Positions 10,392-41,655 of a stretch of DNA of 55,510 nt are shown piece after piece. The stretch is from an uncultured Methanosarcinales archaeon. Lineage in GTDB: Archaea; Nanobdellota; Nanobdellia; Woesearchaeales; GW2011-AR9. Within the stretch, counting starts at the first letter, position 1; every line of letters begins with the position of its first letter. The notes beneath the pieces were generated by a model. That model worked only from the letters and a program-made list of their open reading frames with translations. It made no database searches and was not told where the DNA came from. The position numbers and the translations under genes are program-made. Where the stretch lies: positions 1 to 55,510 of the forward strand of contig CAYSWQ010000005.1 of assembly GCA_964434885.1 (NCBI GenBank). The letters run 5' to 3'.

Positions 10392-11950
10392 TTTTAAATT
10401 ATTTAGTTTTAGTTTTAGCAATTTTATTAGTTTTAACACCTTTAGTTATCTTTCCAGTATTTGGCTATGATTGGGCAGTTCATAAAGAAATATCGGATAA
10501 ATTAACCACTAGTGGATCATTGGAAAGTGTTTCTTGGACTGAAGCATACAAATATACTCCGGGAACAGCACTTATAATAAACATGGTTGGCAATTTGTCT
10601 GAAAATAATCCTTTTATATTAAAAATTTTAACAATAATTTTATCTGTTCTTTTTGTAGTGTTGTTTTTTATTATTTTAAAAAAATTTGTATCTAAGACAA
10701 TTCATGTTGGGTTAGTTTCATTGTTTTTACTTGGATCATTTGAAATATTAGTTTATACTTCAGTTCTTCATTCTCAATTATTGGGTTATATTTTATTATT
10801 ATTATTATTTTATTTAATATTAGAAAAGAAATTTGAATTAGTATTATTTTTCTCCATTATAATTTCACTAACACACACTTGGACAAGTTTTTTTGTATTG
10901 GTATTTTTTATATTTTATATGGTTGTAGAAGATCAAGGAAATAAAATTTGGATTTATTTAAGTTGTTTGACAATTTTATTTATTTCAACCACATATAATT
11001 TTTTTGTAAGTGGACCTATACTTAATATATTAAAATTAAATTCTAATTTGTTGGTGTTTGTTTTTGTAGCACTTATTTTTTCGATATTTTTTTTAATATT
11101 GGTCTTATTGAAAAAGAAAGATTTCCATAATTTATTGATTATTTATTATAATAAATTGAATAAAAAGTTTTTGAGATATGTTTTGTTTGTGTTATTGGGA
11201 GGAATAAGTTTTTTATTTTTTCAATTAATGTATTTGAAGCATTCAACTAATTTAATTTCATTAATCCTTTTCAATTCTGGAAAATTATTGGTTGCAGTAT
11301 TATTTATTTATTCCATAACAAATCAATATAATTTGAAAAATCATCAAAACCAATTATTATTTTCATTTATTTGTTCATCGGGATTGCTTTTGTTTGTTGG
11401 GATGTTATTTAAGTTTTTTATGCCCCAACTTTCACCAATTTTATCTTCTATTGGAACACGAACAATATTAGTTCTTCCCATTTTTGCCAGCATTTTTATT
11501 GCAATTATGTTTAAAAAAAAAATAAGTAAATATACAAATAGTTTATTTTCATTAATTTTGATTTTCTTATTGGTGGCAAGTAATTTGTTATTGATTCTCA
11601 ATCCAACAATTTTTTCTCAAACAAATAATCTCCCCCCCTATGATTTTAATCAAAAGGAAATTATGTCTATTGATTATGTTTCTTTTCAAATTCCTTTGGA
11701 TAAATTTATTTTCACTAGTTTTCGTTATAATTTTTTATTAAATTATGATAATTCAAAAGAATTCAAAAATAAAATAATTTCCAACAATAATTTTGATGAA
11801 GAGGGATACTATATCTTCACGAAGATCATGGGGAAATATGGTGTTTTACAAGAGGAAAAAACTATGGGAAAACAAGCACCAATTTCAATAATAATTGATC
11901 CCAATAAAGATTTAATTTACAACAATGACGAAGTCAAGATATACAATTAA
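10376..11950 (+). CDS. Large polytopic membrane protein with a C-terminal soluble domain (possible glycan polymerase/GT-C-like; function unknown)
   Basis: 524 aa with about 12 or more TM segments. Overlaps the flippase gene. No WWDYG motif, so it is not called AglB. Confidence 0.55.
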   Translation: MDQKIILNYLVLVLAILLVLTPLVIFPVFGYDWAVHKEISDKLTTSGSLESVSWTEAYKYTPGTALIINMVGNLSENNPFILKILTIILSVLFVVLFFIILKKFVSKTIHVGLVSLFLLGSFEILVYTSVLHSQLLGYILLLLLFYLILEKKFELVLFFSIIISLTHTWTSFFVLVFFIFYMVVEDQGNKIWIYLSCLTILFISTTYNFFVSGPILNILKLNSNLLVFVFVALIFSIFFLILVLLKKKDFHNLLIIYYNKLNKKFLRYVLFVLLGGISFLFFQLMYLKHSTNLISLILFNSGKLLVAVLFIYSITNQYNLKNHQNQLLFSFICSSGLLLFVGMLFKFFMPQLSPILSSIGTRTILVLPIFASIFIAIMFKKKISKYTNSLFSLILIFLLVASNLLLILNPTIFSQTNNLPPYDFNQKEIMSIDYVSFQIPLDKFIFTSFRYNFLLNYDNSKEFKNKIISNNNFDEEGYYIFTKIMGKYGVLQEEKTMGKQAPISIIIDPNKDLIYNNDEVKIYN

Positions 11951-34882: not shown

Positions 34883-35248
34883 TTAAAATTTAAATTTGTC
34901 TCCATATTGGCCAATAATTGGCAGTTCTTTTTCTACACCTTGAACGGAATAAACTACTCCAAACAACCACAAGACCAAAGGAATTAAACTAATCAAGGTT
35001 GGGATAAACATTAGGATTGTACCTAAACCTAATGTCAACATAGCAATTAATCCAAAAATTACTCCTAAGATTGCGTTTAAAATCCCCAAAGCAATTGAAA
35101 AGATTAATAACACCAATGCTTGTTTAACATGAAAATTAACGTAAGAATTTTTTTTCATTTTTTCATCTACAAAATACCAAATTATCCCGATTACTAAATA
35201 AGATAAAACAGCACAAACTTTACCATCTTCAACTTCTTTTTTTACCAT
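34883..35248 (-). CDS. Small membrane protein (DUF4870-like)
   Basis: 121 aa with 3-4 TM segments. NFHVKQALVLLI motif. Confidence 0.5.
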   Translation of the reverse strand: MVKKEVEDGKVCAVLSYLVIGIIWYFVDEKMKKNSYVNFHVKQALVLLIFSIALGILNAILGVIFGLIAMLTLGLGTILMFIPTLISLIPLVLWLFGVVYSVQGVEKELPIIGQYGDKFKF

Positions 35249-35309: not shown

Positions 35310-35696
35310 TCAATTTATGATTATAGAACCTTGCATGCCAGGATGGAAACTACAAAAATACCTCACTTCTTCTTTTTCTTTGAAAACATGACTAACTTGT
35401 GCTTGGGGATTCAAAACTTGATTAATACGAACGTCTTCAAAAGTAACGGTGTGTTTATTAGATCCTTTATTAATCCAAATAACTTTGTCTCCAGTAAAAA
35501 TTTTAATTGTGTTGGGTATAAATTTATTGTCTTGTATTAAAATAGTGTGAGTTTGAGGGGTAGAAGGTCTTTTTATTGTTTCTTTTACTTTAATGGAAGG
35601 AGTTTCTTTGGTTTGAGATTCACAGCTACAACCAACTAAGAAAATTAAAGAAGCCAATAAAAAAAATAAAAAAATTTTTTTCAATTTACCACCCAT
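35310..35696 (-). CDS. Cupredoxin (plastocyanin/amicyanin-like blue copper protein) with a lipobox signal peptide
   Basis: LASLIFLVGCS lipobox. Cu ligands H (NKHTV) ... C-x2-H-x2-M (CSFHPGM). Confidence 0.8.
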   Translation of the reverse strand: MGGKLKKIFLFFLLASLIFLVGCSCESQTKETPSIKVKETIKRPSTPQTHTILIQDNKFIPNTIKIFTGDKVIWINKGSNKHTVTFEDVRINQVLNPQAQVSHVFKEKEEVRYFCSFHPGMQGSIIIN

Positions 35697-35902
35697 TCAA
35701 CATTTTTGAATTTGTGTTTGGTAGCAATTAGAATTACATCTATAATCCACCAGATCCATCCTAAAATTCCCAGAGTTAAGATAGTGACTAATAATTTTAA
35801 AATTCCTAAACCAACATGACCCATTACAAATCGATCTACACCGAGTCCACCAAATAAGATAGACAATACTAAGGTCAAAACCCAATTAACTTTTTTTGCC
35901 AT
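35681..35902 (-). CDS. TM2 domain protein
   Basis: MAKKVNWVLTLVLSILFGGLGVDRFVMGHVGLGILKLL... Start moved to ATG 35902. Confidence 0.7.
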   Translation of the reverse strand: MAKKVNWVLTLVLSILFGGLGVDRFVMGHVGLGILKLLVTILTLGILGWIWWIIDVILIATKHKFKNVEWVVN

Positions 35903-35925
35903 ATTAATACCTCCATATTGTGTAA

Positions 35926-36702
35926 TTATTTTATCTTTAATAATCTTTTCCAATCTTCTAAATAATATTTGAAGAAAATGATTAGTGCTACTATAACCAT
36001 AACTAGACTAAACCATTGACCTAGACTAAATCCAAGGAAAATACTGTTTTGACGGTAGAAATCAACAATGATTCTTCCTAACCCTTCCCAAAAAACAAAA
36101 TTCCAAAAGATAAAACCTGGTTTAAAATTTTCTTTGAAACTGAGGATTAATAACCAACCGAAAACTAAGAATCTCTTTCCGGCAGCATATAATGTAGAAG
36201 GGTGACGACAATCTTGATAATTGGGAAATTGAACACACCAATCAACGTTAGTTGTTCTCCCTACTAGTTCTCCATTCATGAAATTAGCAATTCTTCCTAA
36301 AGCAAGAGCAAAGATACCTGGAACACTTAAAAGATCTGCCATTTTCCAAAAATTTATTTTTTTCTTTTTACAATACCAATAACCAGCTACCACGATTCCA
36401 ACAAAACCACCATGAAAGCTCATCCCCCCTTGCCAGAATTTTAAAAGATTTAATGGATTTTTAAGATATAATGAAGGTTCCCAGAAGATTTCAAATAATC
36501 TTGAACCAATTAAAACCCCTAACATCAAATAAAAACAAAAATCCCAAATATCATCTTTAGTTAAAGGTATTTTTCCTTTTTTTCTCCAAAAAAACAACCA
36601 CCAAATCATCAGAAAAAATCCCAGAACATAAACTAAACCATAATATCTTATTTCTACTGGTCCTAGAGATAATAGTGTTGGATTGAGGTCATGAATAAAC
36701 AT
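35926..36702 (-). CDS. lgt: Prolipoprotein diacylglyceryl transferase
   Basis: All Lgt signature blocks are present: YYGLVYVLGF, GGMSFHGGFVG, LGRIANFMNGELVGR, RHPSTLY, GRIIVDFYRQ. Confidence 0.9.
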   Translation of the reverse strand: MFIHDLNPTLLSLGPVEIRYYGLVYVLGFFLMIWWLFFWRKKGKIPLTKDDIWDFCFYLMLGVLIGSRLFEIFWEPSLYLKNPLNLLKFWQGGMSFHGGFVGIVVAGYWYCKKKKINFWKMADLLSVPGIFALALGRIANFMNGELVGRTTNVDWCVQFPNYQDCRHPSTLYAAGKRFLVFGWLLILSFKENFKPGFIFWNFVFWEGLGRIIVDFYRQNSIFLGFSLGQWFSLVMVIVALIIFFKYYLEDWKRLLKIK

Positions 36703-36760
36703 TTTATTGTTGTATTTTTAATAGATTATTTAAATTTTAGCAAATAACTCCTACTTCACA

Positions 36761-39461: not shown

Positions 39462-40052
39462 TTACTTTCTCCACCAACTCAAAAACCAACTTATTCCGGC
39501 TCCAATCATTCCCAAGAACATATCTTTTTGGGCATCCCAAATATCTCCTTGCATACCTAAATAATTAGTTTCTACTAATTCACTTTCTGCTACTAAACTA
39601 TAACCAACTTCGATTATTTCGAAAATTCCTTTTAATCCGATAATAACCATAAAGGTGAAAAAATGACTCCAGATTTTTTTGATCTTTAGTTTTTTGTAGA
39701 TTATTACTTGGATGGGAAAATAGAAGACTACTCCGAATAAAAAGTGGACTACTCGGTCATAATGATTACGGGATAAGTTCAGCCAATTTTTTAATAGATC
39801 AAACAATGGCATTTCTGAATAACTGTAGTGAGCACCGATGGTGTGTAAGATTAAGAAAATAAATAAGAGGGTGTAGCTGAGATTGGAGAAACGAAAATAT
39901 TTGTAAGTTATAACCAATAATAAAACTAAAGTAACACTCAAGATATTTTCAGCAATCCAAACTTCTCGATATAATGGGGAGATGGCTAGAAAGGTCCAAA
40001 TTAGAGTAAAAATGCCTAATAAGATAGAAGGATAATAATTTTCTTTTTTCAT
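39462..40052 (-). CDS. Polytopic membrane protein (DUF2238/YjdF-like)
   Basis: 196 aa with about 6 TM segments. Resemblance only. Confidence 0.45.
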   Translation of the reverse strand: MKKENYYPSILLGIFTLIWTFLAISPLYREVWIAENILSVTLVLLLVITYKYFRFSNLSYTLLFIFLILHTIGAHYSYSEMPLFDLLKNWLNLSRNHYDRVVHFLFGVVFYFPIQVIIYKKLKIKKIWSHFFTFMVIIGLKGIFEIIEVGYSLVAESELVETNYLGMQGDIWDAQKDMFLGMIGAGISWFLSWWRK

Positions 40053-40862
40053 TTAAAATTGTCCTTTTTCAATTAAAATTCTCATTCTTTGCACAAAATC
40101 ATTGGCTTCTTTTAAGTAAAGATCATATTGGTCACCGCGGATTTCTTTAATTTCTCGATGAGTAATCATTTTACTAAGTTTGTAAAATTTGTGCATAGTT
40201 TCTACATATTTTTTTTCTAATAATTTCTTTTTAACAAAAATTTTATCTAACATATGGGCAACGTGTTCAGGAGTGGGAGGGATTTCGTTTTTTCTCATTA
40301 ACGCAGCATGAGCAGAATCAATAACTGCCCAATATAAATCTAAAGTAGCTTGTAATAAATGCCATCGAGAATTAAGTATTGTTCTTGGGGCTCTTCCGAA
40401 GTAACGCCAAACACTTTCTTCTGAAGGTCTGATTCTTCCTCTTTTTAGTAAAACTTGTAATGGATTATAGAAACCAGAATCATATAATGCGAAACCATCT
40501 CTTAGGATGTTAACTACTACGGGATCTCCAGCTTTAGCATATTCCCAGAAAGAAGATAAGGTCATAGAAGTAATATGTAATTTTTCTGAAGTTTTACTGA
40601 TGGTGTTTTCAACAATTACTCGATAAGTTTCTACCAATGCATCTGTGATTTGAAAACTGATGTCGTCAGTAACAACTAAAATATCAATGTCACTTTTTTC
40701 AGTAGCTTCCCTTCTAACTGTGCTACCAAAAAGAACAATTCCTTTTAAGAAATCTTTTAATTCTGTTTGTAATTGATTAGAAAAACTAGTAGCGATTTTA
40801 ACATCTGCAGTAGGATATTTGTGTAGGTTGGTGTTCTCTCTTTTGGCTATTCTAAATTCCAT
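40053..40862 (-). CDS. Nucleotidyltransferase-domain protein with a helical HEPN-like C-terminal domain
   Basis: GSTVRREATEKSDIDILVVTDD (minimal NTase G-S...DxD), followed by a helical C-terminal half. Confidence 0.6.
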   Translation of the reverse strand: MEFRIAKRENTNLHKYPTADVKIATSFSNQLQTELKDFLKGIVLFGSTVRREATEKSDIDILVVTDDISFQITDALVETYRVIVENTISKTSEKLHITSMTLSSFWEYAKAGDPVVVNILRDGFALYDSGFYNPLQVLLKRGRIRPSEESVWRYFGRAPRTILNSRWHLLQATLDLYWAVIDSAHAALMRKNEIPPTPEHVAHMLDKIFVKKKLLEKKYVETMHKFYKLSKMITHREIKEIRGDQYDLYLKEANDFVQRMRILIEKGQF

Positions 40863-40977: not shown

Positions 40978-41655
40978 ATGAAAAAATTAGTTTTTGTAAT
41001 GGTATTGATCTTGTTTGTTGTAGGGTGTGATAATAATAGCATCAATAAACAAGGTTTGAAATTACATTATGAAAGAACTTTTTTTTCGTTGCATTCAGAT
41101 TTGGATTGTGGAGAAGAACAGGGGGACTTCTGTTTGTTACAACAAATAGTAAAGGGTAAAAATGTTTCTGCCTGTGAACAATTTGGAGAAGGAATTGCTA
41201 ACTACGAATGTTATACTAAAATGGCGGAAAAGTTGGGTGATTTTAAGATTTGTCATAAACAAAATATTTCTGAACCAAAAAAATCTATTTTTGGAGGAAT
41301 GCATATTTGGGTTTACCAATGTTATCTTAATTTGATTGCAACTAAAGGAGATGTTAAGTTGTGTGATCTCAAATATAATAACACCGAAGGAAGAATAGTC
41401 TGTTACAATGAGTTGGCAGGGGTTTTGGCTAATTTGGATATTTGTGATAAAATTAAAACAGTTGAAGATAAGAACAATTGTTTTACTTGGGTGGCAGAGA
41501 CATTAAGAGATATTTCAATATGTGATAGAAACATTAAAAACGAGTACACTAAACAATTTTGCTATAAAAACGTGGCTCTAGTTTTAAATGATACTTCAAT
41601 TTGTAAAGATAAGGTCACTTTTGATGATTTAAGATTCTATTGTGGAATAGAATAG
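40978..41655 (+). CDS. Cys-rich repeat lipoprotein (unknown function)
   Basis: LILFVVGCDNN lipobox. About 6 repeats of roughly 30 aa with the pattern D.x.(I/L)CD/H ... C(Y/F)..(V/L)A. Confidence 0.6.
   Translation: MKKLVFVMVLILFVVGCDNNSINKQGLKLHYERTFFSLHSDLDCGEEQGDFCLLQQIVKGKNVSACEQFGEGIANYECYTKMAEKLGDFKICHKQNISEPKKSIFGGMHIWVYQCYLNLIATKGDVKLCDLKYNNTEGRIVCYNELAGVLANLDICDKIKTVEDKNNCFTWVAETLRDISICDRNIKNEYTKQFCYKNVALVLNDTSICKDKVTFDDLRFYCGIE

What the first reader, a model, noticed from the sequence alone, without database searches (positions are those of the whole stretch)
35310..36702. Bona fide bacterial-type Lgt in an archaeal genome, in an operon with a lipobox cupredoxin
Seen: 35926-36702 carries every Lgt signature block (GGMSFHGG, GRIANFMNGELVGR, RHPSTLY, IIVDFYRQ). 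It overlaps or abuts a TM2-domain gene and a cupredoxin whose signal peptide ends in the lipobox L-V-G-C. A second lipobox protein (V-V-G-C, 40978-41655) lies 4 kb away. Established: Lgt performs the first step of bacterial lipoprotein maturation. Archaeal lipobox proteins are known, but to my knowledge canonical Lgt/Lsp enzymes are generally reported as absent from archaea and the archaeal lipidation machinery is unresolved. Inference: this is probably a horizontally acquired lgt acting on co-encoded substrates. What it would transfer from ether lipids is an open question.
Basis: partly seen in the sequence, partly recalled or inferred. Interest (0 to 1): 0.6.

Follow-up and report, generated by a model that had tools for sequence, protein, structure and literature searches.

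The report
Bacterial-type Lgt lipoprotein pathway in Woesearchaeota
A small marine DPANN archaeon carries an intact copy of Lgt, the bacterial enzyme that fastens surface proteins to the membrane by a lipid, and also its partner enzymes LspA and Lit; nearly its whole order has all three and lacks the archaeal enzyme AliA, although recent specialist papers say archaea have no such genes.

Summary
Window 35926-36702(-) encodes a 258-aa Lgt. It matches PF01790 full-length at 1.9e-63 and TIGR00544 above its cut-off, and its AlphaFold model matches only E. coli Lgt (5AZB, TM 0.80).

It is translationally coupled to a TM2-domain gene and a lipobox (LVGC) type-1 cupredoxin. It lies between archaeal ABCE1 and archaeal GluRS, and that synteny holds in 11 sister genera, so this is neither contamination nor recent transfer.

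Lgt is lineage-wide: 93/101 genomes of the order and 141/151 of a phylum sample. LspA occurs in 94/101 and Lit in 75/101; this genome has both, with intact active sites.

The archaeal lipidation enzyme family AliA (DUF63/PF01889) was found in 0/101 genomes of the order. In the phylum sample it occurred only in three genomes, all of which lack Lgt and LspA.

About 40 lipobox ORFs occur in this genome, with Cys enriched fivefold at +1.

The window's family has remodelled the donor pocket (Y235E, E243D, E202A in E. coli numbering). The lipid donor is unresolved. Lit and order-wide PlsC-like genes hint at ester lipids.

This scan has reported DPANN Lgt on at least 19 other genomes, and NCBI already names these proteins Lgt. 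The pathway is therefore a new member of a known kind.

The parts
35926..36702 (-). lgt, prolipoprotein diacylglyceryl transferase homologue (258 aa)
   Evidence: PF01790 at 1.9e-63, full length. TIGR00544 181 bits, above the 118.9 cut-off. E. coli Lgt 5AZB by sequence at 6.6e-31 and by fold, TM 0.80. Catalytic residues conserved.
36727..36734 (-). TTTAAATA, a TATA-box-like word 25-32 nt upstream of the lgt ATG (inferred archaeal promoter, short or no leader)
   Evidence: Read directly from the sequence. Inference only.
35681..35902 (-). TM2-domain small membrane protein (73 aa from the ATG; the ORF extends to 35953 from a TTG start)
   Evidence: PF05154 at 1.4e-13. A GGAGGT box precedes ATG 35902. 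No counterpart was found beside lgt in 20 related loci.
35310..35696 (-). Lipobox (LVGC) type-1 cupredoxin, halocyanin-like; the probable Lgt substrate
   Evidence: PF13473 at 3.4e-12 and PF00127. Best PDB relatives are type-1 Cu protein 5fc9 and amicyanins, and the C-x2-H-x2-M ligand loop is present. Lipobox-bearing orthologues lie directly downstream of lgt in L027-L033.
34883..35248 (-). 121-aa polytopic membrane protein of unknown family, same strand, 61 nt downstream
   Evidence: No Pfam match. Homologues lie next to lgt in L024, L029 and L033.
40978..41655 (+). Cys-rich repeat protein with lipobox VVGC; a second candidate substrate
   Evidence: ORF and N-terminus. In the lipobox census. 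No Pfam family.

Best explanation
The gene is a functional, vertically inherited Lgt of a Woesearchaeota-type (GTDB Nanoarchaeota/Nanobdellota) archaeon.

Together with LspA (own genome, contig C32) and a Lit-family transacylase (contig C10), it forms a complete bacterial-type lipoprotein maturation route:
1. Sec-exported precursors with an [LVI]-x-[GAS]-C lipobox receive a diradylglyceryl group on the Cys thiol from a glycerophospholipid bound in the Lgt pocket. R137 and R210 here correspond to E. coli R143 and R239; the H97-GGF motif here corresponds to the E. coli HGGL motif (H103).
2. LspA cuts the signal peptide before the Cys.
3. Lit may then remodel the anchor.

The cupredoxin translated from the same mRNA is one of about 35-40 substrates in this 1.07-Mb genome.

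In this order the pathway stands in place of the archaeal AliA/AliB system, which is not detectable.

Shown: gene identity, fold, conserved residues, distribution, synteny, lipobox enrichment and complementarity with AliA.

Inferred: activity, and the lipid donor. I lean slightly (about 55:45) towards an ester-linked, bacterial-type phosphatidylglycerol-like lipid taken from partners, over archaetidylglycerol.
For: Identity:
- Family matches.
- Fold: pLDDT 88.5, and 5AZB is the only Foldseek hit below E 0.001 (4.7e-13), TM 0.80.
- Y26, H103, D129, R143, N146, E151, G154 and R239 equivalents are invariant in 63 archaeal homologues.

Native archaeal gene:
- Flat G+C.
- Flanked by ABCE1, archaeal GluRS (TIGR00463, 550 bits) and euk/arch uS2.
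- The ABCE1-lgt and/or lgt-PRC-wHTH-GluRS order is kept in 11 of 14 same-family genera checked.
- The window's family forms a clade with 100% SH-aLRT. The tree with all archaea held as one clade has a higher likelihood than the free search, AU p 0.586.

Pathway:
- LspA at C32, TIGR00077 100.5 bits against a 73.95 cut-off, with the GNLIDR and FNIADA Asp motifs aligned to S. aureus LspA.
- Lit at C10, PF07314 71 bits, with His85 and His153 equivalents H64 and H132 (PMC8275575).

Census:
- Lgt 93/101, LspA 94/101 and Lit 75/101 in the order. Lgt 141/151 in the phylum sample.
- AliA family PF01889: 0/101 in the order. In the phylum sample it hits only G137, G159 and G162, which lack Lgt and LspA. 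HVO_2859 (AliA) is a DUF63 protein (PMC9426492).

Substrates:
- 40 lipobox ORFs among 1163, with Cys enriched 4.95-fold at +1 relative to proteome composition.
- A lipobox cupredoxin lies downstream of lgt in 7 of 14 other same-family loci, 8 with the window.
Against: - There are no expression, activity or lipid data; everything is sequence-based.
- The window's family has E at the position of E. coli Y235, D at E243 and A/S at E202. In E. coli, Y235F/L/S and E243A/Q/R do not complement (PMC4728403).
- No PgsA-like phosphatidylglycerol or archaetidylglycerol synthase was recognised. The only CDP-alcohol transferase is closest to archaetidylinositol-phosphate synthase, and below its cut-off.
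- The genome shows no GGGPS, PlsY or PlsC, so the membrane lipids are unknown.
- The lipobox census is a regular-expression scan on crude ORF calls, and a few of the 40 are clearly false.
- Seven genomes of the order have LspA without a detected Lgt, and six have the reverse.
- The tree uses only 13 bacterial sequences, 12 of them from plasmid or chromid records.
Confidence: 0.8

Rival explanations
1. Lgt works on the archaeal side of the lipid divide. It transfers a diphytanyl/digeranylgeranyl-glyceryl (archaeol) group from archaetidylglycerol, and the Y235E/E243D/E202A pocket changes adapt it to the opposite glycerol stereochemistry and to ether chains.
For: - The genome keeps a CarS-like CDP-archaeol synthase next to a CDP-alcohol transferase.
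- Archaeal lipoproteins such as halocyanin carry thioether-linked archaeol (PMC12462473).
- Y235 contacts the glycerol C3-OH of the donor in E. coli (PMC4728403), and that residue is changed in this family.
Against: - Most of the order keeps Y235/E243/E202 exactly as bacteria do.
- GGGP synthase has no convincing hit in 101 genomes of the order.
- The Lit reaction needs an ester-linked sn-2 acyl chain (PMC8275575), and Lit is present with an intact His dyad.
- PlsC-type acyltransferases occur in 50/101 genomes of the order.
Confidence: 0.35
2. The protein is an Lgt-fold enzyme that has changed its job, or is inactive, in this family. It might transfer a different lipid or act on a non-lipobox acceptor, because residues that are intolerant to change in E. 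coli have been replaced.
For: Y235E, E243D and E202A/S are fixed in the window's family. E. coli mutants at 235 and 243 lose function.
Against: - The changes are coupled and conserved across all 14 same-family rows of the 63-sequence alignment (E or D at 235, D at 243), which looks like compensated remodelling and not decay.
- All other catalytic residues are invariant.
- LspA and Lit are retained in the same genome.
- Lipobox proteins are enriched, and one is co-transcribed.
Confidence: 0.1
3. The gene is bacterial DNA: contamination or mis-binning, or a very recent transfer into this one genome.
For: The family is otherwise bacterial. The four archaeal control genomes have no hit.
Against: - No composition break.
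- Archaeal genes lie on both sides in one 55-kb contig.
- Same neighbourhood in 11 of 14 sister genera, several of them on contigs of 400-560 kb.
- Closest 120 database relatives are 64-84% identical (after the window's own entry), and every source name given is Woesearchaeota or Nanoarchaeota. Bacterial plasmid copies are at most 37% identical.
Confidence: 0.02

Closest known systems
Escherichia coli Lgt (phosphatidylglycerol:prolipoprotein diacylglyceryl transferase; PDB 5AZB/5AZC; PF01790, TIGR00544)
   Same: - Seven-helix fold with a head domain (TM 0.80).
- The HGG motif, the GRxxNFxNGELxG signature, and Y26, R143, N146, E151, G154, R239 and R246.
- Lipobox substrates and an LspA partner in the genome.
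   Different: - The host is an archaeon.
- 33 residues shorter, with a shorter head region and L6-7 loop.
- Y235 is E, E243 is D and E202 is A in this family.
- The donor lipid is unknown, and no PG synthase was recognised.
AliA/AliB of Haloferax volcanii (arCOG02177/02178, DUF63, PF01889), the only archaeal lipoprotein lipidation components described
   Same: The same cellular task is inferred: a thioether lipid anchor on the lipobox Cys of secreted proteins, including small blue copper proteins.
   Different: - A different family. PF01889 gives no hit in this genome or in 101 genomes of the order.
- AliA attaches archaeol.
- The distribution is complementary to Lgt in the sample.
Firmicute Lgt-LspA-Lit route to lyso-form lipoproteins (Bacillus cereus / Enterococcus faecalis Lit, PDB 7B0O)
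   Same: The same three families occur together. The Lit catalytic His85/His153 and the aromatic pocket residues F149, F157 and W162 are conserved.
   Different: - The Lit homologue is shorter (186 aa) and matches only profile positions 43-176.
- Activity on an archaeal anchor is untested.
- An earlier scan note reports a Lit-like gene beside AliA in another DPANN lineage, so Lit need not imply ester lipids.
Halocyanin of Natronomonas pharaonis (lipobox blue copper protein with archaeol thioether anchor)
   Same: A small type-1 cupredoxin with a lipobox signal peptide in an archaeon.
   Different: Here it is encoded in one operon with a bacterial-type Lgt. It is Sec-type, with no twin-arginine motif.

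Membership tests
Lgt (PF01790 / TIGR00544) | Full-length profile match above the curated cut-off | tested here: met
   PF01790 214.5 bits over positions 1-239 of 240. TIGR00544 181.3 bits against a 118.9 cut-off.
Lgt (PF01790 / TIGR00544) | Seven-TM fold with periplasmic head, as in 5AZB | tested here: met
   AF2 pLDDT 88.5, pTM 0.84. 5AZB is the only Foldseek hit below E 0.001 (4.7e-13), TMq 0.80.
Lgt (PF01790 / TIGR00544) | H103-GGL motif and Y26 | tested here: met
   H97-GGF and Y21; invariant in 63 archaeal homologues.
Lgt (PF01790 / TIGR00544) | Signature G142-G154 with R143, N146, E151 and G154 | tested here: met
   G136, R137, N140, E145 and G148; the four key residues are invariant in 63 sequences.
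Lgt (PF01790 / TIGR00544) | R239-E243-R246 hydrogen-bond network | tested here: inconclusive
   R210 and R217 are present. E243 is replaced by D214 here and in 45 of 63 archaeal sequences. An E-to-D change was not tested in E. coli.
Lgt (PF01790 / TIGR00544) | Y235 in the glycerol pocket | tested here: not met
   E206 in the window. The position is E or D throughout its family and Y in the rest of the order and in 12 of 13 bacteria.
Lgt (PF01790 / TIGR00544) | Lipobox-bearing substrates encoded in the genome | tested here: met
   40 candidates. Cys is enriched 4.95-fold at +1.
Lgt (PF01790 / TIGR00544) | Transfers diacylglyceryl from phosphatidylglycerol to Cys | not testable with these tools
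   Needs an enzyme assay or mass spectrometry.
LspA (PF01252 / TIGR00077) | Profile match above cut-off and both catalytic Asp motifs | tested here: met
   G000:C32, 144 aa. TIGR00077 100.5 bits against 73.95. GNLIDR and FNIADA align to 6RYO.
Lit (PF07314) | Profile match above cut-off and the His85/His153 dyad | tested here: met
   G000:C10:43-603(-). 71.3 bits against 24, but only profile positions 43-176. H64 and H132 align to the dyad of 7B0O.
Lnt (TIGR00546) | Any match in the genome | tested here: not met
   No hit in a genome that is 92% complete.
AliA/AliB (DUF63, PF01889) | Any match in the genome or order | tested here: not met
   0/101 in the order, including G000. The control rings in H. 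volcanii, M. jannaschii and M. acetivorans. 3/151 in the phylum sample, all of them Lgt-negative.
Type-1 cupredoxin (PF13473/PF00127), halocyanin-like lipoprotein | Cupredoxin domain, His/Cys/His/Met ligand set, lipobox | tested here: met
   PF13473 46.7 bits. The H in KHTVTF and the loop C-SF-H-PG-M are visible. The lipobox is LVGC. Copper binding is untested.

The most novel reading that the evidence does not exclude
Woesearchaeales (and most of their class) have replaced the archaeal AliA lipidation system with the whole bacterial Lgt-LspA-Lit route because their membranes are built, at least in part, from bacterial-type ester phospholipids scavenged or remodelled from bacterial partners. 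That would make them an archaeal lineage living functionally on the bacterial side of the lipid divide. The window's family would then have re-tuned the Lgt donor pocket.
Probability: 0.3. Interest if true: 0.85.

Novelty: new member of a known kind. Interest (0 to 1): 0.6.

Why it matters
Two recent specialist papers (Nat Commun 2025, PMC12462473; bioRxiv March 2026) build on the statement that archaea have no homologues of Lgt or Lsp, and they present AliA/AliB as the archaeal solution. Here a large archaeal order carries Lgt, LspA and Lit almost universally and has no detectable AliA.

Archaeal lipoprotein biogenesis therefore has at least two routes with complementary distributions. That makes two questions directly testable:
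- Which lipid does an Lgt use in an archaeal cell?
- What are the membranes of these uncultured, host-dependent archaea made of?

It also supplies a natural substrate pair (lgt plus a co-transcribed cupredoxin) for in-vitro work.

Tried and rejected
- Contamination or mis-binning: rejected on composition, flanking genes and synteny.
- Recent HGT: rejected on the census and the clade test.
- Lnt: searched, not found.
- Control for the lipobox scan by swapping Cys for Ser, Thr or Ala. Raw counts were similar (33-44), so that control was uninformative. I replaced it with enrichment against proteome composition.
- Donor phylum. The 13 bacterial sequences available (E. coli plus 12 plasmid or chromid copies) only show the archaeal group nearer to proteobacterial, Bacteroidota and Collinsella copies than to Bacilli, Actinomycetes and Cyanobacteria. 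I make no donor claim. A long-branch Phocaeicola plasmid copy nested among the archaea in the free tree, but the constrained tree scored better.
- Supplementary tables of PMC12462473, which might have shown which DPANN genomes lack arCOG02177, are not held.
- TM2 gene as a conserved partner of lgt: not found beside lgt in 20 related loci.
- No paper linking Lgt or LspA to Woesearchaeota, Pacearchaeota or DPANN was found. 'LGT' hits meant lateral gene transfer.

Full report
**What is there.**
The minus strand of the window between 34883 and 36702 carries four closely packed genes.
- The first, 35926-36702, encodes a 258-aa protein. It matches Pfam LGT (PF01790) over positions 1-239 of 240 at E 1.9e-63. 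It matches the NCBIfam equivalog TIGR00544 at 181.3 bits against a cut-off of 118.9.
- By sequence its only relative among solved structures is E. coli Lgt, 5AZB/5AZC, at E 6.6e-31.
- An AlphaFold2 model built on 33 homologues has mean pLDDT 88.5 and pTM 0.84. In the PDB, 5AZB is its only Foldseek match below E 0.001, at E 4.7e-13 and TM-score 0.80; the next hit has E 0.26.

**Operon anatomy.**
- A TTTAAATA word lies 25-32 nt upstream of the lgt ATG (36702), in the 116-nt divergent spacer shared with a PRC-barrel gene.
- The lgt stop is at 35926.
- A GGAGGT box and ATG 35902 then open a 73-aa TM2-domain protein (PF05154).
- Its stop overlaps by 16 nt the ATG (35696) of a 128-aa cupredoxin (PF13473, PF00127). 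The cupredoxin's signal peptide ends LIFLVGC.
- The cupredoxin's closest solved relatives are a type-1 copper protein (5fc9) and amicyanins. It has the C-x2-H-x2-M ligand loop.
- A 121-aa membrane protein of no known family follows after 61 nt.

**It is a native archaeal gene.**
- G+C stays at 0.29-0.33 across the region.
- The neighbours are ABCE1/RLI, archaeal-type GluRS (TIGR00463, 550 bits) and euk/arch uS2.
- The window is contig C5 of a 1.07-Mb assembly in 66 contigs, 92% complete with 0% contamination.
- I fetched the lgt region from 14 other genera of the same family. In 11 of them lgt lies next to ABCE1 and/or the PRC-wHTH-GluRS block, as it does here. Several of these are on contigs of 400-560 kb.
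- The 120 best database relatives are 64-84% identical (after the window's own entry). Wherever a source gives a name, it is 'prolipoprotein diacylglyceryl transferase [Candidatus Woesearchaeota archaeon]' or '[Nanoarchaeota archaeon]'.
- Bacterial copies on plasmids and chromids reach at most 37% identity.

**Distribution.**
- PF01790 is found in 93 of 101 genomes sampled from the order, one per genus.
- It is found in 141 of 151 genomes of a phylum-level sample, including 26 of 36 genomes from other orders of the class.
- The four archaeal control genomes (M. jannaschii, H. volcanii, S. acidocaldarius, M. acetivorans) have none.
- In a tree of 48 archaeal and 13 bacterial sequences, the window's family is a clade with 100% SH-aLRT support.
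- The tree that holds all archaea together has a log-likelihood 6.75 better than the free search, AU p 0.586.

This is an old, vertically inherited trait of the lineage and not a local acquisition. The bacterial sample is too small and too plasmid-biased to name a donor.

**The rest of the pathway.**
LspA is present on contig C32 (144 aa). PF01252 gives 1.8e-35, and TIGR00077 gives 100.5 bits against a cut-off of 73.95. Both catalytic Asp motifs (GNLIDR, FNIADA) align to S. aureus LspA 6RYO.
- Lnt was not found.
- A Lit-family protein is present on contig C10 (186 aa, PF07314, 71 bits). The equivalents of the catalytic His85/His153 dyad and of F149, F157 and W162 are conserved against 7B0O (mechanism from PMC8275575).
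- Across the order, LspA is found in 94/101 genomes and Lit in 75/101 over the cut-off.

**Relation to the archaeal system.**
PMC12462473 identifies AliA (HVO_2859, arCOG02177) and AliB as the archaeal lipidation components, and it states that no archaeal Lgt or Lsp homologues are known. The 2026 follow-up preprint repeats this.

HVO_2859 is a DUF63 protein (PMC9426492), that is, Pfam PF01889. The accession was a lead from earlier notes of this scan.
- PF01889 rings in H. volcanii, M. jannaschii and M. acetivorans.
- It is found in 0 of 101 genomes of this order.
- It is found in only 3 of the 151 phylum-sample genomes: G137, G159 and G162.
- All three are among the ten that lack Lgt, and they also lack LspA.

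No sampled genome has both systems. The three AliA-positive genomes sit in three different families, but they may represent a single evolutionary switch. The pattern is therefore suggestive and not statistical.

**Substrates.**
A crude ORF set of 1163 genes, covering 93% of the genome, contains 40 ORFs with a basic n-region, an uncharged h-region and [LVIFM]-x-[GAS]-C at positions 13-36. About 35 of them look like textbook lipoprotein signal peptides followed by Ser/Thr-rich linkers.

Cys is the only strongly over-represented residue at +1. It is 4.95-fold above its proteome frequency, against 1.8-fold or less for every other residue.

A lipobox-bearing cupredoxin lies directly downstream of lgt in seven other genera of the family. 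Their lipoboxes are MAGC, VAGC, LAGC, LVAC, LVGC, LSAC and LTSC. This supports a real enzyme-substrate operon. The TM2 gene is peculiar to this genome.

**Catalytic residues.**
Against E. coli numbering, Y26, H103, D129, R143, N146, E151, G154 and R239 are invariant in 63 archaeal sequences. In the window they are Y21, H97, D123, R137, N140, E145, G148 and R210.

The window's family differs in a coupled way:

| E. coli residue | Window's family | Rest of the order | Bacteria |
|---|---|---|---|
| Y235 | E or D | Y | Y in 12 of 13 |
| E243 | D | E | E in 13 of 13 |
| E202 | A or S | E | not tallied |

In E. coli, Y235 hydrogen-bonds the glycerol C3-OH of the donor. Y235F/L/S and E243A/Q/R do not complement, while E202Q does (PMC4728403). 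I read this as a compensated remodelling of the donor pocket that is conserved by selection. It is nonetheless the one defining feature the window's protein does not meet.

**Which lipid?**
- This genome has no detectable GGGP synthase, PlsY or PlsC.
- It has a CarS-like cytidylyltransferase beside a single CDP-alcohol transferase. That transferase is closest to archaetidylinositol-phosphate synthase, below its cut-off.
- It probably takes lipid cores from elsewhere.
- Across the order, GGGPS has no convincing hit; the best is 25 bits and partial.
- PlsC-type acyltransferases occur in 50/101 genomes of the order and in none of the archaeal controls. Coleman et al. noted sporadic PlsC/PlsY in DPANN (PMC6431249).
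- Lit chemistry converts an sn-2 ester into an amide, which is impossible on an ether chain.

Together these observations tilt me slightly towards an ester-type donor. Two things argue the other way: the CarS gene here, and an earlier scan note of a Lit-like gene beside AliA in another lineage. This point stays open.

**Standing of the finding.**
The surprise lies in the host lineage and in the contradiction with current papers. It is not new to the databases, since PGAP already names these proteins Lgt. It is not new to this scan either, which has reported it on at least 19 other genomes.

- the order-wide trio Lgt-LspA-Lit;
- its complementarity with AliA/DUF63;
- the conserved lgt-cupredoxin operon;
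- the family-specific pocket swap;
- the order-level contrast of GGGPS (none) against PlsC (half).

Noticed in passing
order-level genome sample; not in the window: PlsC-type acyltransferases (PF01553) occur in 50/101 genomes of this archaeal order, several as tandem pairs of about 215 aa. GGGP synthase (PF01884) has no convincing hit in any of the 101. The window's own genome has neither.
   Followed up: partly
window 35926-36702 (residues E206, D214, A173) and same-family loci L021-L034: A coupled substitution Y235E/D + E243D + E202A/S (E. coli numbering) is fixed in the window's family of Lgt. The rest of the order keeps the bacterial residues.
   Followed up: partly
G000:C7:15033-16020 (L020:1408-2497): A CarS-like CDP-archaeol synthase and the genome's only CDP-alcohol phosphatidyltransferase sit tail to tail on opposite strands, 10 nt apart. 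The transferase is closest to archaetidylinositol-phosphate synthase. A Dph2-like (diphthamide biosynthesis) gene lies next door.
   Followed up: partly
G000:C32:701-4543: Three consecutive lipobox proteins of about 300 aa lie on the same 11-kb contig as lspA (10625-11059).
   Followed up: no
G112, G082, G014, G050, G070, G141: Some relatives carry 2-4 Lgt-family matches, including divergent paralogues of 75-125 bits. G141's copy L025 branches far from its own family.
   Followed up: no
L048 (Phocaeicola massiliensis plasmid record OY726034.1): In the unconstrained tree this long-branch Bacteroidota lgt copy nested among the archaeal sequences. The constrained tree scored better, so this is probably long-branch attraction.
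   Followed up: partly
window 34883-35248(-): A 121-aa polytopic membrane protein with no Pfam family lies beside lgt here and in L024, L029 and L033.
   Followed up: partly
window 39462-40862(-): A DUF2238 membrane protein and a nucleotidyltransferase (NTP_transf_2) gene lie between GluRS and the Cys-rich lipoprotein. The NTase is also kept next to GluRS in G094.
   Followed up: no
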